A stretch of 64,000 bases of DNA from NCBI GenBank assembly GCA_000002445.1, contig CM000207.1, forward strand, positions 1,824,001 through 1,888,000. The letters are read 5' to 3'. Each line of letters opens with the position of its first letter. The stretch's first letter is position 1. The notes below the pieces were generated by a model. It saw nothing but the letters and a program-made list of their open reading frames with translations. It made no database searches and was not told the DNA's origin. This DNA comes from Trypanosoma brucei. Its lineage: Eukaryota. Below are positions 1 to 31,791 of the stretch, in pieces. The translations under genes were made by a program, and so were the position numbers.

Positions 1-1
1 G

Positions 2-10605: not shown

Positions 10606-11034
10606 TAATCGATTATTCTGTGTGAGTTTTACGCCGCGTGTGCTATGTACTACTATTTTGTTCTTCTGTAGGTGATGTGATTTTGCATCCTTTTGTTTGC
10701 TTGCTCTTCTACGCCCAATTCCTGCTTTCCTTATTCCACTCTTATATATGTGAGTGACGTTGCGGAATGCGCTAATATCGGTGGGGCCATTTTATTTCGT
10801 GATATCTGTCATGGATTCTCTAGTGCTGCAGCTCCTCTACGTCGATTTCCCCCTTTTTTGTTGTTCTTTTCCTTTGCATCTCCTTCTAACCGGAACTACC
10901 AAAACATGAATGTTTTGTGCTTGTGTGTCTAATATACGTTTGGAAAATGGTCAAATGCATTTACAATATAGATATACTGGGCGCATTTGTCCCAAGATTT
11001 CAAAGTGGTGAGAAAGAGGTTTAAAAGTTAACGT

Positions 11035-14000
11035 ATGTCGAACGAGTACACGACGGCTGCAAGATTGCAACAACATCATCTTTCATCGGGTAGCGCCAAC
11101 ATGGACATGTGTGTTTACTCGAAATTGTTGGAGGGGTCCTCGACAATTCTGCAGGCAATCAACGCATTAACGCCACTGGCCCCGAAGGCAGCAAACATTG
11201 TTGAACGCGAGATCGTAAATTTTATGCGTGCGGCGACGCCCGAGCACCGCGTTCGATGTATATCGCAAATAACGGGTGCGCTTCGTGAACCAGCATTCTA
11301 CAATCAGCGTCATAAGAGGGGGTGTGCCACCTTTCTGCATAAACTTGCGGTACATTTTGTGTTTCCGCTTCTGTTGCACTCTTCCGTGCGGTATCTTCAC
11401 CGAGCCCTTGCCACCCTTGTCCGCACGGTGTACGTCGTGAGTGAGGATCTTGAGTTGTGTTTTCAAGAGGCATTTGTTACCGCGCACATAAAGCCTTGGT
11501 TTCGCGACGGGTGCCGCCCTAGTTTGTTGCAGCATCTTGACTCCACCGAACTGTCCCTGTTGAAGGATCCCATTATGAACTGGGTAAACTGCATAGATGG
11601 CACAATGTGTGTTGCCGTTCCGCTCTTTCCAGCAGTGTTTGCTAACACATTTTTCGACGTTGTTCCGCTTCTGGGCGACAGCCTGCAGTGGATGGTAGAC
11701 AATGCCTGCGCTGGATGTTCCCAGTCAGAATGTGGGAAAGGCAACAGCGGCATGCTTCTGGGCGAAGATTTGTCGTATGTCCGCTATGGCATCCGTGTTG
11801 TAACGACATATGTTCATAAATTTCTTCATCTTCTAGGTGATGTCCTGCATGAAGGGGAGGAACAAAAGATGGCTGAGGTGCAGGAGGATATATGCAAACT
11901 TTTCTCTTCTTCCTTGAGGATGCTTTCATCGGCAGTATTTCCAAAAGATGTTCTTAACGGTGCTGGACTCCTTGTATCCTCGCTTTTGACAATCCGCACG
12001 TGCGACGCATCGTTTTTACTTGAGATCTGTCGCTACTGCGGCGCCAGTGAAGTCCGTAAGGAGTCGAACTTCACTTCGGTTGCTGACGACGATGGTTGTA
12101 GCAAACGATGGACGGAAGAGTACGTTAGGGAGTTTGTGCAACTTGTGTGTTCCAGTGACCCTCAGCATGAGATATTGCAACGCTCCTTTTCACGAGACTC
12201 GTTGCGCCGAATATTCTATTCGTTCACTGCAAATGGTCGTTTCGCCTTGATGAAGGGTTTACTTGCGCATTTATCGACCCCTCTGCGCGGTAACATTGGT
12301 TCTGTTGGTGTGCTGCTGAAACCTGTTGTCCCTTTATTGGACAATCTCAGTTCCTATGCCGCCAGTGGGCGGCCCTTGGTTGCGGTGTACGACGTCATAA
12401 TTCCAGCTGCTATTTCTTATTGCTCCGCCCTCCATGTCCCAGACACGCGCTTCATGGCCATTCAAACTATAGATTCTGTTGTTCGACACCTTTCTTCTGT
12501 GTTTACATGCATTGCTGACCTACTCGAAACCACGCTTGAAGAAAGCGTCGTCGAAGGCACGACGCGTGTAGTGAAGAGGGGCGTGCAGCGTGCTGGCGGA
12601 GTTGGGTTACTGACTGAAACTGATCGCAAGGCACTAAGCGCACTGTGCGCAAATACTTCTGGACTTATGCGAGCGCTAAGCGAAGCAACAGAGGTAATCA
12701 TGGGGATGTGGGACGACAGTACACAGCATGTGGCCGGGCCGCTATATGGAGCATACAGCGAAATACTTGCTGTCCATTCCTCTGTTAGACGTTGCAACAC
12801 CCTTTTGTCGCAAGGTTCTGGTGCACCAAACCAGGAAGTCGATGCACTGGATGTTGCGGAGACCCTACATGTAATTCTGCCAATACCCAATGAAAGGAGA
12901 GGTAAGTACCACGCACTTTTGGCCCTTCTTGACGTTGTGCAGGTACCTCAGTTTCTCTTGGAGCTGCGTCAACATCGTGCTAAATGCAGCAAAGAAGGCG
13001 CTGCTGATTATTGTTCTGCAGTGACGCCCGATGATGTTTCAGAAGTTGATGCGCTCTGCGAATTCAGCAGAATGCTTCTTGGTGGCGCAATAAATCCCAA
13101 GGTAGGGAGCGCTGCTGGTGAAGTTTTTGCGAAAACGGCCAATTATATTCGTCTTTCGAGCGGTACTGAAACAGAAACTGAAAAACTGTTTTTTGGGGGT
13201 GTCATTGAGCCGTTGTTAAAGTCAATTGTGGTTCCCGGATATTGTGCACCTTTGCACGTCGAAGATGCGACACGTATCTCAAACATTGTGACACACATGA
13301 TCTCTCCGTGTCTGAAACGTGACGAGTCATACCTCCCAACCCTGTTGTCGCGTTTAGCAACGATGGTCGAAAGCGGGGATTGCTATTTCCGGCTGGGTCA
13401 AAGTATTGTTGAAATTTTACACCGTGCTCGTGTTGCTGGCAGGGATGTGAGCACTTATATTCATCCCAGAAGTCGCCTTTTCAAGGTTGTCCTCTCGAGT
13501 CTACAATCACATTCAAGCGAACTTCGTTATACCGCATTGGGTCTGTGCGTGCTCACCATGAAGAAGGCCGAGCCTGTGCATTACTGGCAGTGTCGCCTCA
13601 TGGAATGGTACATTAGTACTAATATGCACTCGGGAGGTGATTCGGCGGCCATGCGAAACCTTTTAGAAGTATACAAAAAATGGGCTCAGCGGCTGGTTGA
13701 CAGTTGTGCGAGCAAGTGCAGCAATCGTCGCAGGAAGGCAGAAGGGAACGAAACGAGCGATCAGTATAGAGATCTTGTCACCAAACACTTCGTTCGAACC
13801 GTGTCGTACATTGCACCGCACATTGGTGAGTCTGTAGAGTGGTGCCGCAATCTTTCGCTTGAACGACGCGTGACAGCGATGATGATATACTCATGCCTCC
13901 TCCGAAACTCCACTGAGGTTTTCACAGATACACAACTTCACGAACTTCAGGAGCAGTTACTTCCCGAAACCCTTGTCGAAGGTTTGCTAGAGTGTCTGTC

Positions 14001-17000
14001 ATCAGGTTGGGTGAAAGCACGCGAGTGTGCGTTTGGCATCCTTCAAACGTATTGCAAGTATGCTGCCAGCGCTGTATTTTCTGAGCGCCGCTTGGGTAAC
14101 CCGGTGGCGGCTAGTGATGCGAAGGCAGGGCTTTCCCATGCTCGCACGTACAAAAAGGCGGAAGGTGAGGTGTTGCGATATGTATTGGCCACATATTTCA
14201 CACCCGCTGCTAGGAAAGCGGCATCCGAGGACCCACAAAGAGAGTGCAAACGGCGGCTGGAATTAGTAAAACTCGAGATTGCTGCACTTCACGGCAAATT
14301 TGTCGGACTATGCCAATTGGGTACTAAGAAGGCATACCAACTTGTCAAACTTCATCCATTTCACGGTTCTCTTTCGCTTTGTGCAGCATTGCTATCAAAT
14401 GTCAAGGAGGTATGTACCACTGCTGACGGACTGCAAGAGTCGTGTAACCAGATGCTTCTGTGCTGCAATCAGGCTCTACAGAATTGTTCCCTACTTGTTG
14501 GGGGGGAGGCCAGCGGCTCTGCAAATGAAGGTGATGTGGACGTGGACTGTCGCGGGCACGCATTCGACAAAGGGAACCCTTGCGAGGAGGCGAGTATGCG
14601 TGCAGTTGTGAACAACACATGGCTCTGTATCCGCACAGCCGCCGCCGCAGTTGAGCGTGTCGTGGCTCTTGTCAGCATTGACAGTCTCGACTTCAAGGTT
14701 GTTCGTGGGGTGTGTTACGTGCTCGTGGAGTCTCTCCTTCGGACTAAGCACAATGGTGTGATGCGTGCGGTGCGTGGAGCACTGAAAACGATTGCTGCTG
14801 CTCTTCTTCGCTCGCGGGATGTAACCTGCCATACTCTCCCTTCTGAGATTCTGGAGTTTCTGTTGGGACCAGATGGCGTCACCTCCGTAAGTGTAGCGCG
14901 CATGCTGCGGCGCAGCCAAGGGTTGCCACATGCCCTGCTTGCTGTGCTTGAGGCGGAAGACATAGGCGTTCCTGCTACCCTCTTTCCCCAAGCTATGAAG
15001 AGGCTTCTTCATGTGGCAACCAATGCACATAGCAACGAGGGCGGCCCAGATTTGTGCCCCCCAAACGGTAATGATGAGCGGCGGACGCCCGAAGCTGATG
15101 GGGAGATTCGTCGTAGCCAGCGTTCAAACGCTCTGAACGTTTTGAAGTTTATATTTGAAAACAAATCATTTGCATCGCGCTCCGTGTCACACCTTGAAGA
15201 TGCATTTTGGATAGCGGCGTCCGGGTTCGATGATCCCAGTTGGGGCATACGGAACAGCTCACTGATGCTCTTTTCAGCTGTACTTCCCCGTTTCGTTGGC
15301 GAGCATCCCTCTACCGGTGGTGTAGGAGTGAACACCTCTCTCCACGACATTGCTATTCGTGCTCCCCGCGCAGTGGCCTTTGCGTACGAGGAGTTGGTTA
15401 AGAGCTTCACGAACCCCTCACCGAGCTTGGGAGTGTTTCCACTTCTGCAGATGCTTTCTATGCTAGCTCCCGATCCCCCCCATGTTATCACAAAGGCAAC
15501 TACGGTAAACCTGGAGGGAGAGGAACAAGAGCAACCTGACTCACAGCGCATCGTGAATGCAGTGGTACGCTGTGGTTCTTCAAGGAATCTCATGATTCGT
15601 GCTGCCTGCAGTGTCGCACTGACATCGCTTGTGCCACCGACTAACCTTGAGGGATTGTTTGCAGAGTTTTGTTCAGCGCTATCTGCATCACGAACCGCAG
15701 CGAACGCCTTACACGGCGTGTTGCTGCACCTTCAGCAGTTTCATACTTTCTACGTTGGAACGCTTCGTCGTCACGTGAAACCAAGGGCACTGAGCAGCAG
15801 TGTGACACCCACTGTGCAACTGCTTGTTAGCCGCCTTACTGTAGAGGGCCTTACTATTTCTCAGGGGAATTCTGCGCAGGAACCGGTGCTGTCACGGGCT
15901 TGTGTCCGCTGTCCAACAATAGCCGCCACCTTCTTTAGTGTCGCATCTGATGCACTATACCATGCAACAGTTGGTATGAAGGGCATTGAAAAAAAAGATA
16001 TCACCGATTCCGTCCGGTCGCTGGTGAACATTGGTGTTTCGACGCTACACTCTATACTGTGTACCGCCACCCCGCTGTACAGCCTTTCGCGCGCCTACCA
16101 TGCGGCTGTTGTGGAAAATATCACCCTTTTTGCACTGCTCGCTGTGCATTATCTGTCGGATATCACCACCCATCATGGAACACATGACGCATTATGGGTT
16201 GCGTTGCGCGATGTTTTCGCTTGCGATGCGAGCAAAATAATCATGTCTCATACCATGAACCACATAAGCTACCTAATGTCGAAGAATTGGTGGTCGAGTG
16301 AGATATCGGTTGGCGTTGTGAAGCAATTTGCTGTACGTATGAAGTGCGATCTTGTACACGCGGCTTTAACGATGTTGCGGGAGAGCCTTGGCGACGACAG
16401 ACATGTGAAAGGTCTGTCGTGCTTGGAGCTGTTACGTATGCAGTCTCAGTTGGAGTTTGTTGTTACCATGAGTAAGGAGGGGCTCATGTGTCTAGAGGCG
16501 CACAGTGAATTATTTGACGCAGTAGAGGACCTACTTCTACGGCGCATGGACCCCAGTGCTAAGCATTTTCTGCGCAATGCAGATGTGCATAGTTGGGCTA
16601 TTCGCTTTCTTGGTCTCCGTTGTACTTGTCATATGCCACACAACAAAGCCGTCTTGGAGATCATTACACATTACTGTCTTCCCACAGTGAATGTACAGAC
16701 GCGATTAGCGGTAGTGGATTCACTGAATGATAGTTTCTTGGCGGGTGTCGTAACAAGCCCCGCTGCCGCCGCTACTACTTCTACATTTACTAAGCAGCGA
16801 TCTGTTTACCTCCTTGTTTTGCTTCAGCTCCTGTTCGACGACGCCTATGATGTGCGCACTGCTGCTTGCCGTGTCGTCTCACGTCTCGTATTGGCGGCGG
16901 CTTTGCCACTTGACCACACAAGTTGTGTGATCGCTCTCGTGTCGCTTCTTCGCTCGTATTGTTCCACTGGGGAGTTGTCACCGGTGATGGTAAAGCAACA

Positions 17001-17295
17001 TCTTCTAAAGAATACGGAATGCTGTCTTTCCGGCTCTGCAAATAAGGATACGTGTGGTGACGATGATGATGAAGGGAGTGATGAAGAAGGCGTGCTCTTC
17101 GAAAAGGAGGCGGATAACATGTTTGCCGAGGGTTCGTTGCTTGCCTTTCTTGCAACCGTAATTACACGGGAGGGGGCTGACTGCGTGCCGGTTTTTTCGG
17201 TGTACACTGAACTAGTGAACGTTTCGGAACGGTGCGGTAACCCGGCGGTCATGTACGGTGCGCTGCTGGATGAGCCGTCGCCATGTGGCGCCTGA
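11035..17295 (+). CDS. giant (2086 aa) alpha-helical HEAT/ARM-repeat-like protein. It is possibly THADA-like, but the family is not confirmed.
   Basis: A 6.3-kb uninterrupted ORF, Leu/Ala-rich with periodic helical-repeat character throughout. It has an acidic tail (GDDDDEGSDEEG). All antisense ORFs within it are short. Confidence 0.7.
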   Translation: MSNEYTTAARLQQHHLSSGSANMDMCVYSKLLEGSSTILQAINALTPLAPKAANIVEREIVNFMRAATPEHRVRCISQITGALREPAFYNQRHKRGCATFLHKLAVHFVFPLLLHSSVRYLHRALATLVRTVYVVSEDLELCFQEAFVTAHIKPWFRDGCRPSLLQHLDSTELSLLKDPIMNWVNCIDGTMCVAVPLFPAVFANTFFDVVPLLGDSLQWMVDNACAGCSQSECGKGNSGMLLGEDLSYVRYGIRVVTTYVHKFLHLLGDVLHEGEEQKMAEVQEDICKLFSSSLRMLSSAVFPKDVLNGAGLLVSSLLTIRTCDASFLLEICRYCGASEVRKESNFTSVADDDGCSKRWTEEYVREFVQLVCSSDPQHEILQRSFSRDSLRRIFYSFTANGRFALMKGLLAHLSTPLRGNIGSVGVLLKPVVPLLDNLSSYAASGRPLVAVYDVIIPAAISYCSALHVPDTRFMAIQTIDSVVRHLSSVFTCIADLLETTLEESVVEGTTRVVKRGVQRAGGVGLLTETDRKALSALCANTSGLMRALSEATEVIMGMWDDSTQHVAGPLYGAYSEILAVHSSVRRCNTLLSQGSGAPNQEVDALDVAETLHVILPIPNERRGKYHALLALLDVVQVPQFLLELRQHRAKCSKEGAADYCSAVTPDDVSEVDALCEFSRMLLGGAINPKVGSAAGEVFAKTANYIRLSSGTETETEKLFFGGVIEPLLKSIVVPGYCAPLHVEDATRISNIVTHMISPCLKRDESYLPTLLSRLATMVESGDCYFRLGQSIVEILHRARVAGRDVSTYIHPRSRLFKVVLSSLQSHSSELRYTALGLCVLTMKKAEPVHYWQCRLMEWYISTNMHSGGDSAAMRNLLEVYKKWAQRLVDSCASKCSNRRRKAEGNETSDQYRDLVTKHFVRTVSYIAPHIGESVEWCRNLSLERRVTAMMIYSCLLRNSTEVFTDTQLHELQEQLLPETLVEGLLECLSSGWVKARECAFGILQTYCKYAASAVFSERRLGNPVAASDAKAGLSHARTYKKAEGEVLRYVLATYFTPAARKAASEDPQRECKRRLELVKLEIAALHGKFVGLCQLGTKKAYQLVKLHPFHGSLSLCAALLSNVKEVCTTADGLQESCNQMLLCCNQALQNCSLLVGGEASGSANEGDVDVDCRGHAFDKGNPCEEASMRAVVNNTWLCIRTAAAAVERVVALVSIDSLDFKVVRGVCYVLVESLLRTKHNGVMRAVRGALKTIAAALLRSRDVTCHTLPSEILEFLLGPDGVTSVSVARMLRRSQGLPHALLAVLEAEDIGVPATLFPQAMKRLLHVATNAHSNEGGPDLCPPNGNDERRTPEADGEIRRSQRSNALNVLKFIFENKSFASRSVSHLEDAFWIAASGFDDPSWGIRNSSLMLFSAVLPRFVGEHPSTGGVGVNTSLHDIAIRAPRAVAFAYEELVKSFTNPSPSLGVFPLLQMLSMLAPDPPHVITKATTVNLEGEEQEQPDSQRIVNAVVRCGSSRNLMIRAACSVALTSLVPPTNLEGLFAEFCSALSASRTAANALHGVLLHLQQFHTFYVGTLRRHVKPRALSSSVTPTVQLLVSRLTVEGLTISQGNSAQEPVLSRACVRCPTIAATFFSVASDALYHATVGMKGIEKKDITDSVRSLVNIGVSTLHSILCTATPLYSLSRAYHAAVVENITLFALLAVHYLSDITTHHGTHDALWVALRDVFACDASKIIMSHTMNHISYLMSKNWWSSEISVGVVKQFAVRMKCDLVHAALTMLRESLGDDRHVKGLSCLELLRMQSQLEFVVTMSKEGLMCLEAHSELFDAVEDLLLRRMDPSAKHFLRNADVHSWAIRFLGLRCTCHMPHNKAVLEIITHYCLPTVNVQTRLAVVDSLNDSFLAGVVTSPAAAATTSTFTKQRSVYLLVLLQLLFDDAYDVRTAACRVVSRLVLAAALPLDHTSCVIALVSLLRSYCSTGELSPVMVKQHLLKNTECCLSGSANKDTCGDDDDEGSDEEGVLFEKEADNMFAEGSLLAFLATVITREGADCVPVFSVYTELVNVSERCGNPAVMYGALLDEPSPCGA

Positions 17296-17691
17296 CATTA
17301 CGATGTGACACGTAGCGTTGTTAATTTAATAAAGAGGTGCAGCGAGCATCTACACATTGTGAGAATCGATTAAGGAAGTGGCTCCTATGAGCCTCTGTAC
17401 GATTTTTTACAAACAACTTTTTAACCGCTGTGGTATGTGGCGTTACGATGGCTCTTGCATTTCCCTGTGCGGGGTGGAAGAATTGCAATGCCAACGCTAT
17501 CCGTGTAGTGTGCGGATACCACAAAGTGGGCCACATTTGAATGTGTTCGGTGGTATTTTTACTAAAAGTTGTACAACGTACTTGATCGTAACTTCACGTA
17601 CGCCCATCATCTGGTCCGTATGATTTTCTCCTATATATTTTTTTTTCGTGGGGTTACATGGGATTTTATTACTAGAAACTGAGGGAAGTAA

Positions 17692-18987
17692 GTGGGTTTG
17701 GGGGAAGACATATCAAGTCTGAATTGGCAAATGTCTGTTTCTAGTCAAATAGGCATAAGGCGACACGCCTTGTTGCCCTTTATCGGGAGTGTTGCAAGCC
17801 GCCGTAGCTTTCGAGGATGCCAATGGACTCATCACAGTTGCCGCTTCATGTCGTCCTGCAACCCTCTTCGTGGGTCCTTCAAATATCGTCACAACAGAAC
17901 ACTCCCTGAAGATGCAGTTAATCCATTAACGACCCCAACAAACGTCGACGCGGGAGTTCTTCACGTTGTTTCCGTGCCTATTGGTAACTTGAAAGACTTT
18001 TCTATTCGTGCACTTGATGTACTTCGACAAGTGGATTACATTGTAACGACGGACCGCCCTGCAACAAAGACACTCCTTGACCTTGTTCAAATTGAGTCCC
18101 AGGGCCGCTTAATTCATTATTCCCGTAGCAATCGCACGACAACGAAGGAGAAACTAGTTGAGCTCCTGTTGGGGGGCAGGAGAATGGCATTGGTGTGTAC
18201 GAGCGGAACACCATGCGTGGGTGATGTAGGCGGTGAACTGGTGCGGGAGATGCAGGCTGAAGGTGTTCGTGTCGCGGCGGTACCCGGGTCATGCGCTCTG
18301 ACATGTGCATTGGCTGTTGCTGGTGTCACAACTTCCCTTCACGAGGTTAGTGCGACTGCAGACACGAATCGGGCATGTGCTGCCAAGCGGCCGAGGATTG
18401 GCTCTCTCCGTGACGGTTCTTTTTACTTTGGAAATGTGCTTCCGGAATCTCATGGTGAGCGGTTGCGGGTCCTTCGGACGGCTGTAGGAGAGGCAACTCA
18501 CCCATGTGTTTTTTATGAGGTTCCCCGGCGTCTTTTGTCGGTTTTACAGGACATCGCACTCGTCCTTCCCAAACGACGCGTCGTACTAACACATGAACTG
18601 ACAAAGGTAAATGAATCTATACATGCAGATGTTGCAGAAAAGCTACTGTCTTTTTATTCGCGACAGGAGGCGAATATGCTGCTTAAGAAGGGGCAACTTG
18701 TCCTGATCATCGATGGGCCGGATGAAAACGAAATGCGGGAACGCTTAGAATGCGAAGCCCTAAAACGACAGCGACTGCGGAGGAGTTTTGCGTCGTTAAC
18801 CGGACGCTGTGGTAACATGGAGGAGAAAAATACTCACGATGTGGGGAAGACTAAAAGAATGAGGTTGTGCCGTCGGTCCTTATTGCGCAAGAAGCGGCGT
18901 GAGGCGCTTATTTCAAGAATAGAAAAAGAACAAGAGAGAATACGAATGACAATGTTGATTAACCGTACGGACGCAACAAGAGATTAA
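17692..18987 (+). CDS. RsmI-like tetrapyrrole (corrin/porphyrin) methylase-fold protein. It is a putative rRNA 2'-O-methyltransferase, likely organellar. Its C-terminal extension is basic.
   Basis: 'VVSVPIGNLKDFSIRALDVLRQVDYIVTTDRPATKTLLDLV...MALVCTSGTPCVGDVGGELVREMQAEGVRVAAVPGSCALTCALAVAG' parallels bacterial RsmI 'YIVPTPIGNLADIT.RAL.VL..VD.IAAEDTR....LL......ALVSDAGTP.I.DPG..LV......GI.V..LPG..A...AL..AG'. The N-terminus is R/S-rich (IGIRRHALLPFIGSVASRRSFRG), suggesting a mitochondrial presequence. The start Met is uncertain (17692, 17731 or later). Confidence 0.75.
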   Translation: MGLGEDISSLNWQMSVSSQIGIRRHALLPFIGSVASRRSFRGCQWTHHSCRFMSSCNPLRGSFKYRHNRTLPEDAVNPLTTPTNVDAGVLHVVSVPIGNLKDFSIRALDVLRQVDYIVTTDRPATKTLLDLVQIESQGRLIHYSRSNRTTTKEKLVELLLGGRRMALVCTSGTPCVGDVGGELVREMQAEGVRVAAVPGSCALTCALAVAGVTTSLHEVSATADTNRACAAKRPRIGSLRDGSFYFGNVLPESHGERLRVLRTAVGEATHPCVFYEVPRRLLSVLQDIALVLPKRRVVLTHELTKVNESIHADVAEKLLSFYSRQEANMLLKKGQLVLIIDGPDENEMRERLECEALKRQRLRRSFASLTGRCGNMEEKNTHDVGKTKRMRLCRRSLLRKKRREALISRIEKEQERIRMTMLINRTDATRD

Positions 18988-19050
18988 GCCCTACCCACTA
19001 AGTTTAGGTATGACTTGGGTATTTGTCTACACTGGCAACTATGATTGTAG

Positions 19051-19077
19051 TCTCTTTTTTTTTTTTCGTACACAAAT
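19051..19077 (+). promoter_or_regulatory. polypyrimidine tract upstream of 6PGDH (candidate SL trans-splice signal)
   Basis: tctctttttttttttttcgtacac is about 400 nt upstream of the ATG at 19482. Confidence 0.35.
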
Positions 19078-19481
19078 ATGCCCCGTTTCCTCGTCTTTGC
19101 TTTCACATTGTAACTATATATATGTATGAGCTGTTAACAAGGGGCCAGCTACATATTATTGTTTCACGTCAGTGTACGTGATTGTCCTTCATTTTTTTCT
19201 CGAGTGTTTCGTACCTCGTTTCACTTACTTGAACACATAAAAAGAATAATGCACATCAAGACTCCCCGCTTTGTATGTCATTCGTATTTTGAAAAAAAAA
19301 AGGAGAAAAGAACATAACCCTACACAAAGATTAAAGATAAGTTTTTATACATATATTTACTACCACATAAATTGTTGATATAATTACGAAGTGGCCTGTG
19401 GTGCAAACAACAGGAAACACCTGTGGAAAGGCATAAAAATAACTGTTGTTACTTTCAGGAAGGGGAAAAAGACGGAAGATC

Positions 19482-20921
19482 ATGTCAATGGATGTCGGTG
19501 TTGTCGGCCTCGGGGTGATGGGCGCGAACCTGGCCTTGAACATTGCGGAGAAAGGGTTTAAAGTTGCTGTGTTCAACCGTACGTACTCTAAGAGCGAGGA
19601 ATTCATGAAAGCGAATGCCTCTGCTCCATTTGCGGGTAATTTGAAGGCGTTTGAAACTATGGAGGCATTTGCAGCGTCACTCAAGAAACCTCGAAAGGCC
19701 CTCATCCTGGTGCAGGCGGGCGCGGCTACGGACTCAACAATTGAACAACTTAAGAAAGTGTTTGAGAAGGGAGATATCCTCGTTGATACCGGTAACGCGC
19801 ATTTTAAGGATCAGGGACGCCGCGCCCAGCAGCTGGAGGCGGCAGGTCTCCGGTTTCTTGGGATGGGCATATCCGGGGGCGAGGAGGGTGCACGCAAAGG
19901 GCCAGCCTTTTTCCCTGGAGGGACGCTTAGTGTGTGGGAGGAAATACGACCAATTGTTGAGGCCGCCGCAGCTAAGGCAGATGATGGCCGGCCCTGTGTG
20001 ACGATGAACGGCAGCGGCGGCGCGGGATCATGCGTGAAGATGTACCACAATTCGGGTGAATACGCCATTTTGCAAATTTGGGGTGAGGTTTTTGACATCC
20101 TTCGGGCAATGGGACTGAACAACGATGAAGTTGCTGCCGTTCTTGAAGATTGGAAATCAAAGAACTTCTTGAAGTCTTATATGCTCGATATCTCAATTGC
20201 AGCCGCGCGGGCAAAGGATAAGGATGGAAGTTATCTTACGGAGCACGTGATGGATCGTATTGGATCGAAGGGCACCGGCTTATGGTCCGCCCAAGAGGCT
20301 CTCGAGATTGGAGTCCCTGCGCCCAGTTTGAACATGGCTGTCGTATCGCGGCAGTTCACAATGTATAAAACTGAGCGTCAAGCGAATGCCAGCAATGCAC
20401 CCGGTATTACTCAATCCCCTGGATACACTCTCAAAAACAAAAGCCCCAGTGGGCCCGAAATTAAGCAGCTCTACGACTCTGTGTGCATTGCCATTATCTC
20501 ATGCTACGCTCAAATGTTTCAGTGCCTGCGTGAGATGGACAAGGTGCATAACTTCGGACTCAATCTTCCAGCTACCATTGCAACTTTCCGCGCCGGTTGC
20601 ATTTTGCAGGGCTACCTTTTAAAACCCATGACTGAGGCATTCGAAAAGAATCCCAACATTAGCAATCTCATGTGTGCATTCCAAACCGAGATCAGGGCAG
20701 GACTACAGAATTACCGCGATATGGTGGCACTTATCACATCAAAGTTGGAAGTGTCCATTCCTGTGCTGTCGGCCTCCCTCAATTACGTTACTGCGATGTT
20801 TACGCCAACACTCAAGTATGGGCAACTTGTGTCGTTGCAGCGGGATGTGTTCGGTCGGCACGGCTACGAAAGGGTGGATAAAGACGGCCGCGAATCATTC
20901 CAATGGCCTGAGTTGCAATAA
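19482..20921 (+). CDS. GND: 6-phosphogluconate dehydrogenase, decarboxylating (479 aa)
   Basis: MSMDVGVVGLGVMGANLALNIAEKG carries the NADP-binding G-x-G-x-x-G Rossmann motif. There is full-length collinearity with the 6PGDH family. The sequence matches the T. brucei 6PGDH N-terminus recalled from memory. The tracked ORF begins 12 codons earlier at 19446, but MSMDV is the conserved start. Confidence 0.95.
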   Translation: MSMDVGVVGLGVMGANLALNIAEKGFKVAVFNRTYSKSEEFMKANASAPFAGNLKAFETMEAFAASLKKPRKALILVQAGAATDSTIEQLKKVFEKGDILVDTGNAHFKDQGRRAQQLEAAGLRFLGMGISGGEEGARKGPAFFPGGTLSVWEEIRPIVEAAAAKADDGRPCVTMNGSGGAGSCVKMYHNSGEYAILQIWGEVFDILRAMGLNNDEVAAVLEDWKSKNFLKSYMLDISIAAARAKDKDGSYLTEHVMDRIGSKGTGLWSAQEALEIGVPAPSLNMAVVSRQFTMYKTERQANASNAPGITQSPGYTLKNKSPSGPEIKQLYDSVCIAIISCYAQMFQCLREMDKVHNFGLNLPATIATFRAGCILQGYLLKPMTEAFEKNPNISNLMCAFQTEIRAGLQNYRDMVALITSKLEVSIPVLSASLNYVTAMFTPTLKYGQLVSLQRDVFGRHGYERVDKDGRESFQWPELQ

Positions 20922-21527
20922 CATACTTTGCCTCATATTCTCTTCGTCCTTTCCTCTGTTCTATTAACAGAAATCTACGATGTGACATGGAGCGATTGTG
21001 TGATACGAGGGTTGATCGGATGTACACGCGCGTATTTTCATACACAATTTGTCGTGCAACAACCTTGTGGAACAACCGAAGGGGAAAAGGAGAGAGACAA
21101 AAGGTGTCGAAGGGGGAACGGAAAAAATGTGCGTGTGGGCAAGGCGGATGTGCAAAAGGTAGCTGAATAGCGGAAGGGGAGAGGAGGGTTGTGGTTTATT
21201 ATTATACTGGTGCAAAAGTTGGGAGGGAGAAGAGTGACATTGGGGTTCTTTCTTTTTCCTTTTTCAATGCTCTGAAGCACCTTCCGCCTTCTCACTTCGC
21301 CGATGTCGTGCACATCATAAACCCCTTTTGAGTAATTAACTTTTTATTTTGCCGTGGGAAAGTACTGTGTGGCGCTGATTTTTCTTTTACCATTACAATT
21401 TATTATATTATTTTGAAAAAAAAACGCCTGGTGAATTTTCTAACGACATGTTTGTTTAGTTTGTCTTTTTCCAACACTATTTGGAGTACTTTGTTTATGC
21501 CCCTCCAGCATATGCATGTTCTCTGCT

Positions 21528-21650
21528 ACGATTTTTTTCTTCACCGCCACTTTATGTAGCAAACACGTTTCCCTTCACTTTCCTTCCATTTTCTTGTCTA
21601 TTCTTCCCTTTCCTCACTTTCTTTGATGTATGCCATGTGGTTTGTATTTT
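21528..21650 (+). promoter_or_regulatory. extended polypyrimidine region upstream of the mitochondrial carrier gene
   Basis: C/T-rich sequence (ttcccttcactttccttccattttcttgtctattcttccctttcctcactttctttg). The tracker translates it as a spurious F/L-rich ORF, 21481..21822. Confidence 0.4.
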
Positions 21651-21940
21651 CTACCCAAGGCACAATATGGGCGGTGATTCTCTTAATTTAAAGCGGCCGA
21701 ATATAAGGCGGCTGGGCCCCTTCGAAAATTCGACGCTCTGTTACTTTCTTTTTTCACGTTACACCTCGGTTAAAATACAAGAAAATAACAGTGACAACAA
21801 CAACTTCCCAGCGTTAAGGTGAGGCAACGAACATTACACATCGATAATCATTTGCTACCTGCAGCGCATTCGCACGGGGCGTTCAATCGTTTTCGCTTTC
21901 CCCTTTAAGTGGTAACCAATAGGGACGATTAGGTGCTAGT

Positions 21941-22936
21941 TTGATGGATGCAACACTTCACGATAAAAGCACGCGGCAAAACACTGCACCAACCTGTCTA
22001 TCCAAAGCGGAGACAAAACCATCGATTCATGCGGCGGCGGGTCTCCTTGGTGCCTCCATATCAACGGCAATGTTTTATCCACTAGACGCTCTTCGCACGC
22101 AAATGCACGTTTGTAAAGGAGGAGACGTCAACCAACTCTCATCGCTGCGTCAGGTTGTTCGACAAAAGGGGTTGCGAAGATTATACGCAGGTTTCGCTGT
22201 ATCTGTCACCTCCTATGGTATCGGGTGGGGAGCTTACATGGCCGTCTTTAAATCTGTACAGCAGAACCTCTCTGCGTACGTTTCGAGTAATCAAATAGGC
22301 GGAGGCAGTGGAAGCGCTAAAAGCGGCAGTGTGACAGCTGGGTGTAACGTTTTGAGTGGTTGCGCCGCTGCCATAACAACTGGAACTGTTGTTACGCCAC
22401 TTTGTGTTATAAGGACTCGACAGCAACTGTTCGATGGGAGCAATGGCGCCAAACCACAGAACTGCTGGCAGGGATTTAAGGCAATAGTAGAAAACGAGGG
22501 ATGTGGCGCCCTCATGCGGGGCATGATACCCCAGATTCTGATTATGGGAAATACCATCATCCAAATGGCCATTTATGAGGAGCTTCGGCATTACATTGTG
22601 GAACAGAAAATTCAACCCACTTCTTTTGATGTGGCATTGATATCTTCTGTTTCTAAAGCTGTGGCATCAGCTCTGTTCAACCCGATTGAAGTTGTGAGGA
22701 CTCGCTTGCAGGACAAGCGTAATTGCACCTCCCCTGAGTACCGTTCCATGACCGTGGGATTGCGTACCATTTGGCGCACGGAAGGAATTCGTGGCCTTTA
22801 CAGGGGCGTTTGGGTGAATCTTTGCCGTGTCGTTCCGACAACATCGGTGTCTTTTATTTTGTACGAGAAGTTCCTAGCGATACTTTCACATCACAACGCG
22901 CGTAGGGCGGCGTGTCTTCCCTTGGTGGCAGACTGA
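21941..22936 (+). CDS. mitochondrial carrier family (SLC25) protein
   Basis: Three tandem carrier signature motifs: 'YPLDALRTQMH', 'TPLCVIRTRQQ' and 'NPIEVVRTRLQ' (P-x-[DE]-x-x-[KR]-x-[KR]). A six-TM tripartite architecture over 331 aa. Confidence 0.85.
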   Translation: MMDATLHDKSTRQNTAPTCLSKAETKPSIHAAAGLLGASISTAMFYPLDALRTQMHVCKGGDVNQLSSLRQVVRQKGLRRLYAGFAVSVTSYGIGWGAYMAVFKSVQQNLSAYVSSNQIGGGSGSAKSGSVTAGCNVLSGCAAAITTGTVVTPLCVIRTRQQLFDGSNGAKPQNCWQGFKAIVENEGCGALMRGMIPQILIMGNTIIQMAIYEELRHYIVEQKIQPTSFDVALISSVSKAVASALFNPIEVVRTRLQDKRNCTSPEYRSMTVGLRTIWRTEGIRGLYRGVWVNLCRVVPTTSVSFILYEKFLAILSHHNARRAACLPLVAD

Positions 22937-24012
22937 CGGAAGAGTGAACGTTTGCGTGTTTGTATTTGTGTGCTTGTTTGCATGTATGTGTGTAAGAACA
23001 ATACTCCCACTGTAATTGTGCGGGGTTGCCCTGTAATTGAAGGTTTGTGTGTGTGTGTGTGTCTAGTACTTATCTATAATATTGTGAAGACATAAACTGT
23101 AAGTTTATGTGGAGGGGAACAGTTTGTTTTCCACCCTGTTTTGCGGTTGTGCAGGTGCTTCAGTTTTTCGCAATTCAGCATTTTCGAGATCGCGTGTACA
23201 CGTATATACATAAATATGGCAGTGATGCGCACTCAGTTCAGTGCTACAAGTAGGGCTACAGGCGTAAAGTATTGTACTAAAATTACATTTGATAAAACTG
23301 TGTACATGTGCAGTTGCAAGGAAAAAAAAAGGAAGAGTAAGTGCGTCTTCATTAGTTTATCCTAGTTTTTTTGTTTTGTCCTTACTTATCTTTATTTCTT
23401 TCTTTTCTGGAACGTGTTGCCACATTGTGGATTTCTTGAGGGTTCCAGGGAAGACTGATAAGTCGAGTGTATGTTTGCAGAAACGTAAAGCCTACGGGGT
23501 CATCGACACCGTAAAGTGGGAAAGAAAGAAGGCAAGGAGAGATAGTGACTGATCGTACTTAAAGGTTGACAAATCAGAGCGGACGAGGAGTATGCTAATC
23601 GAGACTGGTAATGTTGTGGCGTCAGTTGCGTACCAGATGCTTAACCTGTATTTCTTCACTCCGTGTCGAACCGTTTCTGCGCGCATCCATGCGTATTTGT
23701 AAAGACGTTTTTATTCGCCTCTTTCCTCCCTTTTTTTTTCGAAAACATCAATAGCTCCCTTGGTTCCAGCAGGCTGTGTAGACTTGCATATATACACATC
23801 TAAATAGGTCAATATATACACAATTTACGTATAGGGAGGAAGGGAGGGACGGGAGGGTGATCGGTTAAAACGAAATAGGGGAATTTGTCGACAAAAAAGG
23901 AAATAAACAGGGAGTCGGCAGTGTATTGAACGTGCGTGTTTGTGGTGTGTTTAGGACTGAATTGTAGCCATACGCGCACGTACATATACGCATATATACA
24001 TACATTTCTCCC

Positions 24013-24621
24013 ATGCTCAACAGGGACGGTACCAGGAGCAACCGATCATCTGTGCGGTTAACCAGCGATGAGGGGAAGGTATCCCTTTCTGCATTTAGTT
24101 TTCTCTTCTCGGAGCTGTGCACTCGGGCCCATAGCACACCGACAAAGGCACGGGATATAGAGGAAATTGAACAGCGGTTGACGAGCCTCGGTGCAATTGT
24201 TGGTGCCAAGTTAATGATGTTATCCTCCCTTAAGGATCCTCTTGAGCTGCAGCGGAGACCTACAACAATTGACGAAGCTCTGAAGTTGCTGCAAGAGAAG
24301 TTCTGGACCAGATGGTTTGGCAAGGCAGCGAATGACCTGCAGCAGGAGGGCGAATCGACTCGCTACTTTCTCGTTGACAGTAATCCAATGGTGCTGCAGC
24401 ATGTTTATCCGTCTCCTGAGTATATGGATAGTGAAGGGCAATGGAGCATTAATTACGCTAGTTTTATGGGTGGCATCGTTGAAGGAGCGTTAAGGGCTGT
24501 TGGGTTTGACGCCGATGTGCTCACATATCACCACCCGGAACCCGACAAACCACAACAATCCATTTTTGCCATTTCCTTTGCCCAGCATGTACACGACCGA
24601 GAAAGGAGAATACGTGACTGA
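24013..24621 (+). CDS. TRAPPC5: TRAPP complex subunit, Bet3 family; best match TRAPPC5/Trs31
   Basis: 'VSLSAFSFLFSELC', 'WFGKAANDLQQEGESTRYFLVDSNPMV' and 'NYASFMGGIVEGALRAVGFDADVLTYHH' parallel human TRAPPC5 'VSLSAFALLFSELV', 'LFGKEADKLEQANDDARTFYIIEREPLI' and 'NCASFTAGIVEAVLTHSGFPAKVTAHWH' (recalled from memory). Confidence 0.8.
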   Translation: MLNRDGTRSNRSSVRLTSDEGKVSLSAFSFLFSELCTRAHSTPTKARDIEEIEQRLTSLGAIVGAKLMMLSSLKDPLELQRRPTTIDEALKLLQEKFWTRWFGKAANDLQQEGESTRYFLVDSNPMVLQHVYPSPEYMDSEGQWSINYASFMGGIVEGALRAVGFDADVLTYHHPEPDKPQQSIFAISFAQHVHDRERRIRD

Positions 24622-25113
24622 ACAGAAATACAAGAGGCTCTCCTTTCCTTCGCGGTTCTACCGAACGTGTTTAGAGCAGAGCGTAGGCGACTGCGTCGGC
24701 ATACATATGTATGTATATATCACATACGTTGGTTGCGGCCTCTGCACTTCCTTGGCATTCGCATGCAGTTGTCCAAGAGTGCGTTTGTGTGATGCATCTG
24801 CGTGGGTTGCATCGTTTTTTTGTTTTGCTTCACGTGTTTTTTTTACTGCTGCTGCCAGTGATGTCCGTTGTTGTTGCTGTTACCGTTCGTTCGCAGGTGT
24901 TTTTGTTCTTGTGTTTCTGTGTGCTGGTGATATTCTTCTGGTGTCTGCAGCTTTCTATTCTTCAGTTCGATGATATGGTTTGTAATTGCAGTGATGCGCA
25001 TTTGTCTCCCCGCCCCAATTTCTTTTTTTTTTTTTGGTACCGTCCTTTTACAACGATTCTCGCACCGGCAAAACGTGTTTATTCGTTAATATTAGCCCAC
25101 CGAGAGCGGTTGG

Positions 25114-27279: not shown

Positions 27280-28221
<942 letters not shown>

Positions 28222-31755: not shown

Positions 31756-31791
31756 TGTGTGTATGTGTGTATGTGTGTGTGTGTGTGTGTT
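31756..31791. repeat. (GT)n microsatellite
   Basis: The run reads gtgtgtatgtgtgtatgtgtgtgtgtgtgtgtgt. Confidence 0.9.

What the first reader, a model, noticed from the sequence alone, without database searches (positions are those of the whole stretch)
17692..18987. Bacterial-type RsmI-like methylase with a presequence-like N-terminus and a basic tail
The core (VVSVPIGNL...TSGTPCVGDVGG...VPGSCALTCALAVAG) is collinear with bacterial 16S rRNA C1402 2'-O-methyltransferase RsmI (tetrapyrrole-methylase fold). Eukaryotes typically use this fold only in organelles. The R/S-rich N-terminus suggests mitochondrial import. Kinetoplastid mitochondrial rRNAs (9S/12S) are extremely reduced, so which nucleotide this enzyme would modify is an open question. 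The C-terminal about 110 aa (KRQRLRRSFASL...RKKRREALISRIEKEQERIRM) is highly basic, with no bacterial counterpart.
Basis: partly seen in the sequence, partly recalled or inferred. Interest (0 to 1): 0.55.

Follow-up and report, generated by a model that had tools for sequence, protein, structure and literature searches.

The report
Trypanosome mitochondrial RsmI-like methyltransferase, remodelled
This is Trypanosoma brucei gene Tb927.9.12100, a mitochondrial descendant of the bacterial ribosomal RNA methylase RsmI that keeps its cofactor pocket but has lost two of three catalytic metal ligands and the ribosome-docking domain, so whether it still methylates is unknown.

Summary
The ORF is real. 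The eukaryotic CDS is 17731..18987 (418 aa). It is identical to XP_827462.1, which is Tb927.9.12100 / Tb09.211.3170. The GTG start at 17692 is an artefact of the bacterial genetic code.

RsmI is clearly the best match by profile, sequence and fold: E about 1e-38, against about 1e-3 for CysG/CobA and diphthine synthase. The score stays below NCBIfam's equivalog cut-off.

Mitochondrial localisation was already published in 2010 (C-terminal GFP). Several trypanosomatid genomes already auto-annotate the orthologue as RsmI.

What is new here comes from comparison with the 2026 RsmI-30S structure:
- All 46 kinetoplastid-type homologues lack the essential Mg2+ ligand E44 (T107 here) and D92 (T157 here).
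- 131 of 131 of the nearest canonical RsmI representatives keep E44.
- The nine SAM-contact positions, D100, K200 and R174 are retained.
- Trypanosomatids have also lost the essential C-terminal HTH domain. In its place is a conserved basic helix (aa 371-417).

My reading is that this is an RsmI-derived factor acting on helix 44 of 9S rRNA in the small mitoribosomal subunit. Whether it still methylates or is a pseudoenzyme is open. It is a new variant of a known kind and of moderate interest.

The parts
17731..18987 (+). Coding sequence of Tb927.9.12100 / Tb09.211.3170 (418 aa plus stop). RsmI-like protein.
   Evidence: Exact match to XP_827462.1. TrypTag primers flank the start and stop. RsmI profile hits.
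17692..17730 (+). It is 5' UTR, not coding.
   Evidence: The GTG start arises only under table 11. The annotation and the tagging primers use ATG 17731.
17624..17675 (+). Pyrimidine-rich tract (17624..17647) and the first downstream AG (17674..17675). Putative trans-splice acceptor. This is inference only.
   Evidence: Read directly from the sequence. The small upstream ATG at 17658 lies before this AG.
17731..17871 (+). Variable, basic, acid-free N-terminal presequence (aa 1-47). Probable mitochondrial targeting signal.
   Evidence: Net charge +7 with no D/E. pLDDT below 50. Column conservation 0.26. Mitochondrial with a C-terminal GFP tag but cytoplasmic points with an N-terminal tag.
17872..17955 (+). 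Kinetoplastid-specific conserved N-terminal motif F[KH]YR..R...EDAVNPLTKP..ID (aa 48-75). Function unknown.
   Evidence: Conserved from Trypanosoma to Perkinsela and absent from bacterial RsmI.
17956..18330 (+). RsmI N-terminal domain (aa 76-200). Contains the PIGN loop, T107 (= E. coli E44), R109, T157 (= D92), the GTP motif and D165 (= D100).
   Evidence: Alignments. pLDDT mostly 84-96.
18049..18057 (+). Codons T107-D108-R109, replacing bacterial E44-D45-T46. The essential Mg2+ ligand is lost and a clade-specific arginine is gained.
   Evidence: Position 44 is T/S/I/V/Y in 46/46 kinetoplastid-type sequences, against E in 11/11 and 131/131 canonical RsmI. Position 46 is R in 45/46. E44A is nearly inactive in E. 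coli.
18199..18225 (+). Loop TSGTPCVGD (aa 157-165). T157 replaces the Mg2+ ligand D92. D165 (= D100, a SAM and Mg2+ ligand) is retained.
   Evidence: Position 92 is T/P/N in 46/46. D100 is invariant in all 57 aligned sequences.
18331..18420 (+). Trypanosomatid-specific, poorly conserved insertion (about aa 201-230) at the junction of the two RsmI domains.
   Evidence: Absent from bacterial and bodonid-like sequences. Conservation 0.37. pLDDT 51-55. Splits the RsmI match in two.
18421..18723 (+). RsmI core (Rossmann-like methyltransferase) domain (aa 231-331). Contains Y262/E263, R267, H288, ELTK (K292) and Q322.
   Evidence: Alignments. pLDDT 73-97 per 10-residue block, mostly 85 or above.
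18724..18840 (+). Helix aa 332-358 plus a low-confidence linker aa 359-370. The helix overlaps the position of bacterial CTD helix 1. The rest of the bacterial HTH domain is missing.
   Evidence: AF2 secondary structure. No Pfam RsmI_C hit. hhalign probability 0.3% against the bacterial CTD.
18841..18981 (+). Conserved, strongly basic C-terminal helix (aa 371-417) with motif RKKRRExLIxxIEKEQExIRM. Proposed rRNA-docking or dimerisation element.
   Evidence: pLDDT 97-98 for aa 381-410. 17 K+R against 6 D+E, pI 11.7. Shared between trypanosomatid and bodonid-like sequences: hhalign probability 94%, E = 1.3e-7. No PDB sequence match.

Best explanation
Tb927.9.12100 is a nuclear-encoded protein imported into the mitochondrion, descended from bacterial RsmI.

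Proposed mechanism:
1. The protein enters the mitochondrion through its N-terminal presequence.
2. It binds S-adenosylmethionine in an intact class-III methyltransferase pocket.
3. It engages the 5' strand of helix 44 of 9S rRNA, at the equivalent of bacterial C1402-A1408, in a late small-subunit assembly intermediate.
4. It does this using the retained RsmI residues N86, P83, R267 and K292.
5. It most likely still transfers a methyl group to the ribose 2'-OH of the C1402-equivalent cytidine. It would do so through a remodelled active site that no longer depends on a metal ion. The bacterial Mg2+ ligands E44 and D92 are gone, and clade-specific R109 and H288 have appeared.
6. Docking on the protein-rich kinetoplastid subunit is provided by a lineage-specific basic C-terminal helix. 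This helix takes the place of the bacterial HTH domain that reads h23b.

Shown: family membership, mitochondrial localisation (from the literature), the residue pattern, and loss of the C-terminal domain.

Inferred: the substrate, the timing, retention of catalysis, and the roles of R109 and the tail.
For: **Family.** RsmI is the best profile, sequence and fold match.

**Localisation.** Mitochondrial. Gene identity was verified through the tagging primers.

**Cofactor pocket.** All nine AdoMet-contact positions of E. coli RsmI (I21, T95, I98, D100, A124, Y169, E170, L198, M228) are kept or conservatively replaced across 46 homologues. D100 is invariant.

**RNA-holding residues.** Residues that hold nucleotides on the 3' side of C1402 are retained:
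- K200, in 44/46 (R in the other 2); K200A/E cripples E. coli RsmI
- R174, in 41/46
- N23, in 46/46
- P20, in 46/46

**Purifying selection.** The core is strongly conserved (0.81-0.85 column conservation).

**Target helix.** h44 and h45 are among only three 9S rRNA helices well preserved in sequence and structure. The A1492/A1493 equivalents exist as A576/A577.

**Metal site.** In E. coli, Co(NH3)6 3+, which cannot engage in proton transfer, stimulates RsmI. The authors conclude that the metal positions the 2'-OH rather than transferring a proton. A fixed guanidinium such as R109 (R in 45/46) could plausibly do the same job.

**Correlated losses.** The residues that contact h23b, h24a and the h24a-h45 interface are lost (CTD, Y103, D137, K148). 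This parallels the degeneration of most 9S helices other than h18, h44 and h45.
Against: - E44 is invariant in 131/131 of the nearest canonical RsmI representatives, and E44A nearly abolishes E. coli activity without affecting SAM binding. It is replaced in 59 of about 60 kinetoplastid-type sequences by varied residues (T, S, I, V, A, C, Y). That variety looks like loss rather than substitution.
- D92 is also lost. The G1405 and C1403 networks (R196/W202, F144) are altered.
- Deleting the C-terminal domain kills E. coli RsmI, and trypanosomatids lack that domain.
- The NCBIfam score is below the equivalog cut-off.
- The protein matches no chain in solved structures, including trypanosomal mt-SSU assembly intermediates if their chains are in the copy searched.
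- Catalytically dead modification enzymes are common in euglenozoan mitoribosome assembly.
- No methylation of 9S rRNA at this site has been reported in the papers I could search.
- I could not inspect a 9S rRNA sequence.
Confidence: 0.5

Rival explanations
1. The protein is a pseudo-methyltransferase. It still binds SAM and the h44 strand but no longer transfers a methyl group. It would act only as an assembly factor or checkpoint that holds or unwinds h44 during late maturation of the small mitoribosomal subunit.
For: - Loss of the essential Mg2+ ligand E44 and of D92 across the whole clade, with variable replacements.
- Loss of R196/W202, F144, K148, Y103 and D137, and of the essential C-terminal domain in trypanosomatids.
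- Precedents in the same system: inactive pseudouridine synthase mt-LAF4 and a diplonemid TFB1M lacking catalytic residues.
- Bacterial RsmI itself massively reorganises h44, which suggests a chaperone-like capacity.
Against: - The SAM pocket is fully conserved. In the diplonemid TFB1M precedent most catalytic residues, including SAM-binding ones, are lost.
- D100, next to the sulfonium, is invariant.
- K200 and R174 are kept.
- The clade-specific invariant R109 and H288 suggest a remodelled site rather than an abandoned one.
Confidence: 0.35
2. The protein is an active or inactive RsmI-fold factor that has changed substrate. It would act on another mitochondrial RNA, such as 12S rRNA, imported tRNAs, guide RNAs or mRNAs, rather than on h44 of 9S rRNA.
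For: - The GFP signal was punctate, 'similar to' the guide-RNA-binding proteins GAP1/2.
- Most bacterial platform-recognition residues and the C-terminal domain are replaced by lineage-specific elements.
- The protein is absent from solved mt-SSU intermediates.
Against: - The residues that thread the h44 strand (N23, P20, R174, K200) are the ones retained.
- h44 is the best-preserved part of 9S rRNA.
- No evidence links the protein to editing complexes.
- The authors themselves note that the punctate pattern may be an over-expression artefact.
Confidence: 0.12
3. The protein is not an RsmI relative. It is a diphthine synthase or a uroporphyrinogen/precorrin methyltransferase that happens to share the tetrapyrrole-methylase fold.
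For: It shares the Pfam family PF00590. There are weak hits to CysG, CobA, CobM and diphthine synthase.
Against: - Those hits have E = 5e-4 to 0.1, against 1e-38 for RsmI.
- Foldseek gives E = 2.6e-21 for RsmI against 9e-12 or worse for the other classes.
- RsmI-specific motifs (ELTK, PIGN, FYE.P.R) are present.
Confidence: 0.01

Closest known systems
Bacterial RsmI (YraL), 16S rRNA C1402 2'-O-methyltransferase (E. coli; PDB 5HW4, 9PZG)
   Same: - Two-domain class-III (tetrapyrrole-methylase) fold.
- 35% identity over the core.
- Same SAM-contact residues.
- D100, K200, R174, N23 and P20 are retained.
- Collinear apart from one insertion.
   Different: - Has a mitochondrial presequence and a conserved N-terminal motif.
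- E44 and D92 (Mg2+ ligands) are lost.
- T46 is now R, R47 is now P, R196 is now H and W202 is now N.
- The contacts K148, Y103 and D137 to h24a and the h24a-h45 interface are lost.
- A 30-aa insertion is present.
- The C-terminal HTH domain is absent in trypanosomatids and replaced by a basic helix.
- The score is below the curated equivalog cut-off.
Plant RsmI-like protein AT1G45110 (candidate plastid RsmI)
   Same: It is a eukaryotic, nuclear-encoded RsmI homologue presumed to serve an organellar ribosome. It is also uncharacterised. Kimura and Suzuki noted that rsmI orthologues are rare in eukaryotes 'apart from some plants'.
   Different: It is described as closely similar to E. coli RsmI (63% similarity) with an uncertain targeting signal. 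The kinetoplastid protein is mitochondrial and divergent at the catalytic centre. I did not examine the plant sequence directly.
METTL15 (RsmH orthologue), mitochondrial 12S rRNA m4C839 methyltransferase
   Same: It is a bacterial-derived methyltransferase acting on the C1402-equivalent of mitochondrial SSU rRNA late in assembly. Its loss stalls mt-SSU maturation.
   Different: It has a different fold (class I) and a different chemistry (base N4 rather than ribose 2'-O). [quoted passage not shown]
Catalytically inactive modification-enzyme homologues in euglenozoan mitoribosome assembly (mt-LAF4 pseudouridine synthase; diplonemid TFB1M)
   Same: These are bacterial-type rRNA-modifying enzymes retained as assembly factors after losing catalytic residues. 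This protein has lost a catalytically essential residue too.
   Different: In those cases the active-site or cofactor residues are degraded. Here the SAM pocket is fully conserved and only the metal site is remodelled. This protein has not been seen in any solved intermediate.

Membership tests
RsmI (16S rRNA C1402 2'-O-methyltransferase; TIGR00096 / PRK14994) | Two-domain tetrapyrrole-methylase (class III) fold | tested here: met
   Pfam PF00590, E = 8e-22. AF2 core pLDDT mostly 84-97. Foldseek probability 1.00 to RsmI structures.
RsmI (16S rRNA C1402 2'-O-methyltransferase; TIGR00096 / PRK14994) | RsmI is the best match among all tetrapyrrole-methylase subfamilies | tested here: met
   RsmI models score 1e-38 and 3.7e-37, against CysG at 5e-4. 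PDB RsmI scores 3e-31, against diphthine synthase at 2e-3. Foldseek gives 2.6e-21 against 9e-12.
RsmI (16S rRNA C1402 2'-O-methyltransferase; TIGR00096 / PRK14994) | Score above the curated equivalog cut-off | tested here: not met
   TIGR00096: 128.2 bits against a cut-off of 167.9. PRK14994: 133.3 bits against 502.
RsmI (16S rRNA C1402 2'-O-methyltransferase; TIGR00096 / PRK14994) | S-adenosylmethionine-contact residues (I21, T95, I98, D100, A124, Y169, E170, L198, M228) | tested here: met
   All nine are identical or conservatively replaced in T. brucei (I84, T160, V163, D165, A189, Y262, E263, L290, L323). They are conserved across 46 homologues.
RsmI (16S rRNA C1402 2'-O-methyltransferase; TIGR00096 / PRK14994) | Catalytic Mg2+ ligands E44, D92 and D100 (E44 is essential) | tested here: not met
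   E44 is T107 and D92 is T157. Only D100 (D165) is kept. The same holds in 46/46 kinetoplastid-type sequences, whereas E44 is present in 131/131 canonical representatives.
RsmI (16S rRNA C1402 2'-O-methyltransferase; TIGR00096 / PRK14994) | Residues that capture the h44 strand on the 3' side of C1402 (F144/R174, K200, R196/W202, N23/T201, T19/P20) | tested here: inconclusive
   Kept: R174, K200, N23, P20. Changed: F144 to V/M, R196 to H (46/46), W202 to N/H, T19 to V.
RsmI (16S rRNA C1402 2'-O-methyltransferase; TIGR00096 / PRK14994) | C-terminal three-helix HTH domain (Pfam RsmI_C, PF23016), essential for h23b docking | tested here: not met
   RsmI_C hits E. coli at 6.6e-18 but none of the kinetoplastid-type proteins scanned, including the window protein. 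hhalign probability is 0.3% for trypanosomatids. Bodonid-like relatives show a weak remnant: probability 44%, and a Foldseek alignment to 9pzg that is about 60 columns longer than to 5hw4.
RsmI (16S rRNA C1402 2'-O-methyltransferase; TIGR00096 / PRK14994) | Contacts to h24a and the h24a-h45 interface (Y103, H104, D137, K148) | tested here: not met
   Y103 is G, D137 is S, and K148 is S in trypanosomatids. K or R is kept at position 148 in 9 of 12 bodonid-like sequences.
RsmI (16S rRNA C1402 2'-O-methyltransferase; TIGR00096 / PRK14994) | 2'-O-methylation of the C1402-equivalent on an assembled small subunit | not testable with these tools
   Needs RiboMeth-seq, mass spectrometry or an enzyme assay. 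No 9S rRNA sequence was obtainable with these tools. The literature says only that h44 is well preserved.
RsmI (16S rRNA C1402 2'-O-methyltransferase; TIGR00096 / PRK14994) | Functional homodimer | not tested
   The tools predict single chains only. Conservation of the dimer interface was not analysed.
Other tetrapyrrole-methylase-fold enzymes (diphthine synthase Dph5; uroporphyrinogen-III / precorrin methyltransferases) | Best profile or fold match to these subfamilies | tested here: not met
   E = 5e-4 to 0.1. Foldseek E = 9e-12 or worse.
Mitochondrially imported proteins with an N-terminal presequence | Basic, acid-free, poorly conserved N-terminal extension, with localisation dependent on a free N-terminus | tested here: met
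   No D/E in aa 1-59, net +7 in aa 1-47, disordered, conservation 0.26. From the literature: a C-terminal GFP fusion is mitochondrial and an N-terminal fusion gives cytoplasmic points. No dedicated targeting predictor was available.
Structurally defined trypanosomal mt-SSU assembly factors (mt-SAFs) | Presence as a chain in solved T. brucei mitoribosome or assembly-intermediate structures | tested here: not met
   phmmer against all PDB chains returned only bacterial RsmI-type and other methylase entries, with no trypanosomal chain.

The most novel reading that the evidence does not exclude
The kinetoplastid RsmI lineage is a SAM-binding but catalytically dead 'reader' of helix 44. In this reading it has kept RsmI's ability to pull the C1402-A1408 strand out of h44. 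It uses that ability, together with SAM occupancy, as a late checkpoint that couples small-subunit maturation of the mitoribosome to the mitochondrial SAM supply. The bacterial h23b-reading domain would have been exchanged for a basic helix adapted to the protein-rich kinetoplastid subunit.
Probability: 0.3. Interest if true: 0.6.

Novelty: new variant of a known kind. Interest (0 to 1): 0.45.

Why it matters
[quoted passage not shown] In the human mitoribosome the corresponding 2'-O-methylation is not conserved. A conserved mitochondrial RsmI lineage in kinetoplastids, which include major parasites, is therefore an unusual retention.

The 2026 RsmI-30S structure makes the lineage informative. 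It keeps the cofactor pocket and the h44-strand-binding residues. It lacks the metal ligands and the docking domain that are indispensable in E. coli.

Either outcome is useful:
- If the protein is active, it is a natural metal-independent version of a metal-dependent ribose methyltransferase.
- If it is inactive, it adds a decoding-centre pseudoenzyme to the trypanosomal mitoribosome assembly pathway, at a late h44-maturation step that the solved intermediates leave open.

The question can be tested directly with existing trypanosome genetics.

Tried and rejected
- **9S rRNA target site.** I could not obtain a 9S rRNA or maxicircle sequence to inspect the C1402-equivalent. The DNA collections are bacterial, viral or metagenomic, and I had no reliable exact 14-nt seed. 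This stays untested.
- **Taxon names for the deeper homologues.** None could be obtained. The listing of cluster members returned no organism names for P0062-P0071 or for the extended canonical RsmI representatives. A profile search with A5 returned only short unnamed hits. One such homologue lies on a groundwater metagenome contig. The origin (mitochondrial ancestry or horizontal transfer) is therefore undecided.
- **AFDB fold search.** The afdb50 library was not available.
- **C-terminal tail.** Searched alone against PDB sequences, it found nothing.
- **RsmI_C in bodonid-like proteins.** Pfam did not detect it. Only hhalign (probability 44%) and the longer Foldseek alignment suggest a remnant. 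I treat this as suggestive, not established.
- **Promoter and terminator scan.** The scan of the upstream region is irrelevant to a trans-spliced eukaryotic gene and was ignored.
- **Literature.** Full-text searches for 'RsmI + Trypanosoma', 'tetrapyrrole methylase + trypanosomatid' and the gene identifiers found no functional study.
- **Diphthine synthase or uroporphyrinogen methylase.** Considered and rejected.
- **Alternative start at ATG 17848 (M40).** Considered. Orthologues have comparably long N-terminal extensions, and both the annotation and the tagging design use 17731, so I kept 17731.
Full report
**Observation**

The 17692 start is a GTG that counts as a start only under the bacterial code used by the ORF lister. 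The first ATG is at 17731.

The 418-aa product from that ATG is identical to XP_827462.1 / EAN77132.1, 'hypothetical protein, conserved', of Trypanosoma brucei brucei TREU927. In T. equiperdum the same sequence is named a tetrapyrrole methylase.

The TrypTag supplementary table lists Tb927.9.12100 = Tb09.211.3170. Its C-terminal tagging primer matches window 18905..18984 exactly. Its N-terminal primers flank ATG 17731. That fixes both the gene identity and the start codon.

The neighbouring genes fit T. brucei chromosome 9:
- a VP39-like cap methyltransferase, Tb09.211.3130
- Tb927.9.12070
- a THADA/Trm732-like protein
- 6-phosphogluconate dehydrogenase
- CFAP410, Tb927.9.12170

All are on the + strand.

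A pyrimidine-rich tract (17624..17647) followed by the first AG (17674..17675) is a plausible trans-splice acceptor upstream of ATG 17731. This is inference from the sequence.

**Family**

| Search | Best RsmI result | Next class |
|---|---|---|
| Pfam | TP_methylase over aa 90-315 of the 431-aa frame, E = 8e-22 | none |
| NCBIfam | RsmI equivalogs, E = 1e-38 and 3.7e-37 | CysG, CobA and precorrin methylases, 5e-4 or worse |
| PDB sequences | E. coli RsmI (9PZG, 5HW4), E about 3e-31 | diphthine synthase 2e-3; uroporphyrin methylases above 0.1 |
| BLASTP against E. coli RsmI | 35% identity over 272 columns, E = 3e-36 | not applicable |
| Foldseek on the AlphaFold model | 9PZG and 5HW4, E = 2.6e-21 to 2.3e-20 | other tetrapyrrole-methylase classes, 9e-12 or worse |

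Both NCBIfam scores (133 and 128 bits) are below the curated cut-offs of 502 and 167.9. The AlphaFold model has mean pLDDT 76.5, with the core mostly 84-97.

That is not met, so the family assignment stands.

**Distribution**

One orthologue is found in every named trypanosomatid sampled: Trypanosoma, Leishmania, Leptomonas, Phytomonas, Angomonas, Novymonas and Porcisia. One is also found in Perkinsela, and there are unnamed environmental sequences. Several genome projects already name it '16S rRNA (cytidine1402-2'-O)-methyltransferase'.

I ran an exhaustive profile search of 1.84 billion cluster representatives. It shows a discrete kinetoplastid-type group of 19 representatives scoring 584-221 bits. 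Below that lies a plateau of ordinary bacterial RsmI of about 280 aa, at 200 bits or less.

**Localisation**

Zhang et al. 2010 tagged Tb09.211.3170 with a C-terminal GFP. They found co-localisation with Mitotracker in a punctate pattern, and enrichment in the mitochondrial fraction. TrypTag obtained only the N-terminally tagged line, annotated 'cytoplasm[points]'. That is what one expects if an N-terminal presequence is masked.

The sequence agrees with this:
- no acidic residue in aa 1-59
- net +7 in aa 1-47
- poor conservation
- predicted disorder

**Comparison with the mechanism of bacterial RsmI**

The 2016 crystal structure defines nine AdoMet contacts. It also shows that D100K and A124L abolish SAM binding.

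The 2026 cryo-EM study of RsmI on the 30S subunit shows several things:
- A Mg2+ ion is held by E44, D92, D100, the C1402 2'-oxygen and the C1403 phosphate.
- E44A is nearly inactive with normal SAM affinity. D92A is tolerated.
- The 42-aa C-terminal three-helix domain docks on h23b, and deleting it abolishes activity.
- K200, R174/F144, R196/W202, N23 and T19/P20 hold the unwound h44 strand.
- Y103, H104 and D137 contact h24a, and K148, K150 and H173 contact the h24a-h45 interface.

I aligned authentic E. coli RsmI (taken from NC_000913) with the window protein and 55 homologues.

| E. coli residue | Role | T. brucei | Kinetoplastid-type (46) | Canonical RsmI |
|---|---|---|---|---|
| E44 | Mg2+ ligand, essential | T107 | T/S/I/V/Y, 46/46 | E in 11/11 and 131/131 |
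| D92 | Mg2+ ligand | T157 | T/P/N, 46/46 | D in 11/11 and 122/131 |
| D100 | SAM and Mg2+ | D165 | D, 46/46 | D in 11/11 and 130/131 |
| K200 | holds C1404 | K292 | K in 44, R in 2 | K in 11/11 and 130/131 |
| R174 | holds C1403 | R267 | R in 41/46 | R in 11/11 |
| N23 | holds C1407 | N86 | N, 46/46 | N or Q |
| P20 | A1408 pocket | P83 | P, 46/46 | P in 11/11 |
| T46 | near C1400/G1401 | R109 | R in 45/46 | T in 11/11 |
| R196 | holds G1405 | H288 | H, 46/46 | R in 11/11 |

All nine AdoMet-contact positions are identical or conservatively replaced. The further kinetoplastid-type representatives P0061-P0074 show the same losses, with one exception that keeps E44 (P0070).

Other positions have also changed. 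W202 is now N/H and F144 is V/M. Y103 is now G/S/A and D137 is S. K148 is S in trypanosomatids.

**C-terminus**

Pfam RsmI_C (PF23016) matches E. coli residues 240-285 at 6.6e-18. It matches none of the kinetoplastid-type proteins scanned, including the window protein.

A profile of trypanosomatid C-termini shows no similarity to bacterial C-terminal domains (hhalign probability 0.3%). It shares a 30-column motif with bodonid-like sequences: RKKRRExLIxxIEKEQExIRM, probability 94%, E = 1.3e-7. The bodonid-like group aligns collinearly, though weakly, with the bacterial HTH (probability 44%, P = 2.3e-4).

An AlphaFold model of the bodonid-like P0037 (mean pLDDT 87) has extra helices after the core. 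Its Foldseek alignment to full-length 9PZG is about 60 columns longer than its alignment to the CTD-less 5HW4. The T. brucei model shows no such gain.

My reading is as follows:
1. The kinetoplastid ancestor had a presequence, an N-terminal motif, the RsmI core, a degenerate HTH domain and a basic tail helix.
2. Trypanosomatids then lost the HTH domain.
3. Trypanosomatids also gained a variable insertion of about 30 aa at the domain junction (aa 201-230, pLDDT about 51-55).

In T. brucei the tail helix spans aa 371-417. It has pLDDT 97-98 for aa 381-410, 17 K+R against 6 D+E, and pI 11.7. The basic region from KRQRLRR is 74 aa, not about 110.

**Target**

I could not retrieve a 9S rRNA sequence, so the C1402-equivalent was not inspected. 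The literature gives three relevant points:
- Only h18, h44 and h45 of trypanosomal SSU mt-rRNA are well preserved in sequence and structure. A further 12 helices are reduced to single-stranded 'helix-mimics'.
- A576 and A577 correspond to the bacterial decoding adenosines A1492 and A1493.
- h44 is the last element to mature in late assembly intermediates.

The residues the protein has kept touch the h44 strand. Those it has lost include the bacterial contacts to h23b and h24a, on a platform that has largely degenerated in 9S rRNA. That correlation is my inference.

**Interpretation**

The shown facts are these:
- It is an RsmI-family protein.
- It is mitochondrial.
- It is under strong purifying selection in the core.
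- Its SAM pocket is intact.
- Its metal site is dismantled.
- Its docking domain has been replaced.

Two readings remain.

*Active enzyme with a remodelled centre.* In E. coli, cobalt hexammine, which cannot engage in proton transfer, stimulates RsmI. The authors conclude that the metal positions the 2'-OH rather than transferring a proton. A fixed arginine might therefore substitute for it. The charge bookkeeping is neutral:
- Bacteria: E44 (-1), D92 (-1), R47 (+1) and Mg2+ (+2), net +1.
- Kinetoplastids: R109 alone, net +1.

I favour this reading slightly, at about 0.5, because the cofactor pocket and D100 are invariant.

*SAM-binding pseudoenzyme acting as an h44 chaperone or checkpoint.* There are precedents in euglenozoan mitoribosome assembly. 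I put this at about 0.35.

A change of substrate is less likely, at about 0.1.

The protein matches no chain in solved structures. I found no functional study of it.

**Novelty and verdict**

The gene, its family label and its mitochondrial localisation are already in databases and in a 2010 paper. As originally stated, the finding is therefore largely known.

From established knowledge, cytosolic diphthine synthase shares the fold.

The residue-level comparison with the 2026 RsmI-30S structure adds three points:
- clade-wide loss of the essential metal ligand
- retention of the SAM and h44-strand contacts
- replacement of the essential C-terminal domain

Published surveys say RsmI orthologues are lacking in most eukaryotes. 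In the human mitoribosome the 2'-O-methylation at this position is not conserved.

I classify it as a new variant of a known kind, of moderate interest, with clear experiments available to settle the mechanism.

Noticed in passing
window 2667..4208, 11035..17295 and 17731..18987: Three genes connected with RNA ribose 2'-O-methylation lie within 17 kb on the same strand. They are a VP39-like cap methyltransferase (Tb09.211.3130), a 2086-aa THADA/Trm732-like protein (DUF2428 plus the Trm732 C-terminal TPR, the partner type of the Trm7 tRNA 2'-O-methyltransferase) and the RsmI-like gene. This is probably coincidence, because kinetoplastid polycistrons are not operons.
   Followed up: no
window 1..64000: Every ORF of 200 aa or more is on the + strand, which fits one directional polycistronic transcription unit of T. 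brucei chromosome 9. The identified genes are Tb927.9.12070 (5505..8507), 6PGDH (19446..20921), a mitochondrial carrier (21941..22936), a TRAPP subunit (24013..24621), CFAP410 (27346..28221), Pex19 (35430..36287), an RFC small subunit (37197..38282), a Cys/Met-metabolism PLP enzyme (43887..45224), an EF-hand protein (48198..50258) and a histidine phosphatase (58626..60110).
   Followed up: partly
window 28001..32000 and 52001..54000: Two stretches have markedly low G+C (0.32-0.36, against about 0.47 elsewhere). The first contains a pyrimidine-rich 44-nt repeat of 2.2 copies at 30737..30828 and an ORF (30464..31099) with no Pfam match. These are probably long intergenic or UTR regions.
   Followed up: no
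window 19446..20921: The 6-phosphogluconate dehydrogenase ORF, like the RsmI-like ORF, is listed with a non-ATG (TTG) start because of the bacterial code. The real start is probably the ATG of MSMDVGVVG, a few codons downstream.
   Followed up: no
L002 6001..7590 (ENA ERZ1292633, groundwater metagenome contig of 26.8 kb): A divergent kinetoplastid-type RsmI-like gene (P0065, 529 aa, E44 replaced by A and D92 by P) lies on an environmental contig whose six called genes all run on one strand. This suggests an uncultured free-living kinetoplastid-like eukaryote.
   Followed up: partly
P0061 (3890 aa; match at residues 3529-3882): One representative carries the kinetoplastid-type RsmI-like module at the end of a 3890-aa predicted protein. 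This is most likely a gene-model fusion in an unannotated assembly rather than a real multidomain protein.
   Followed up: no
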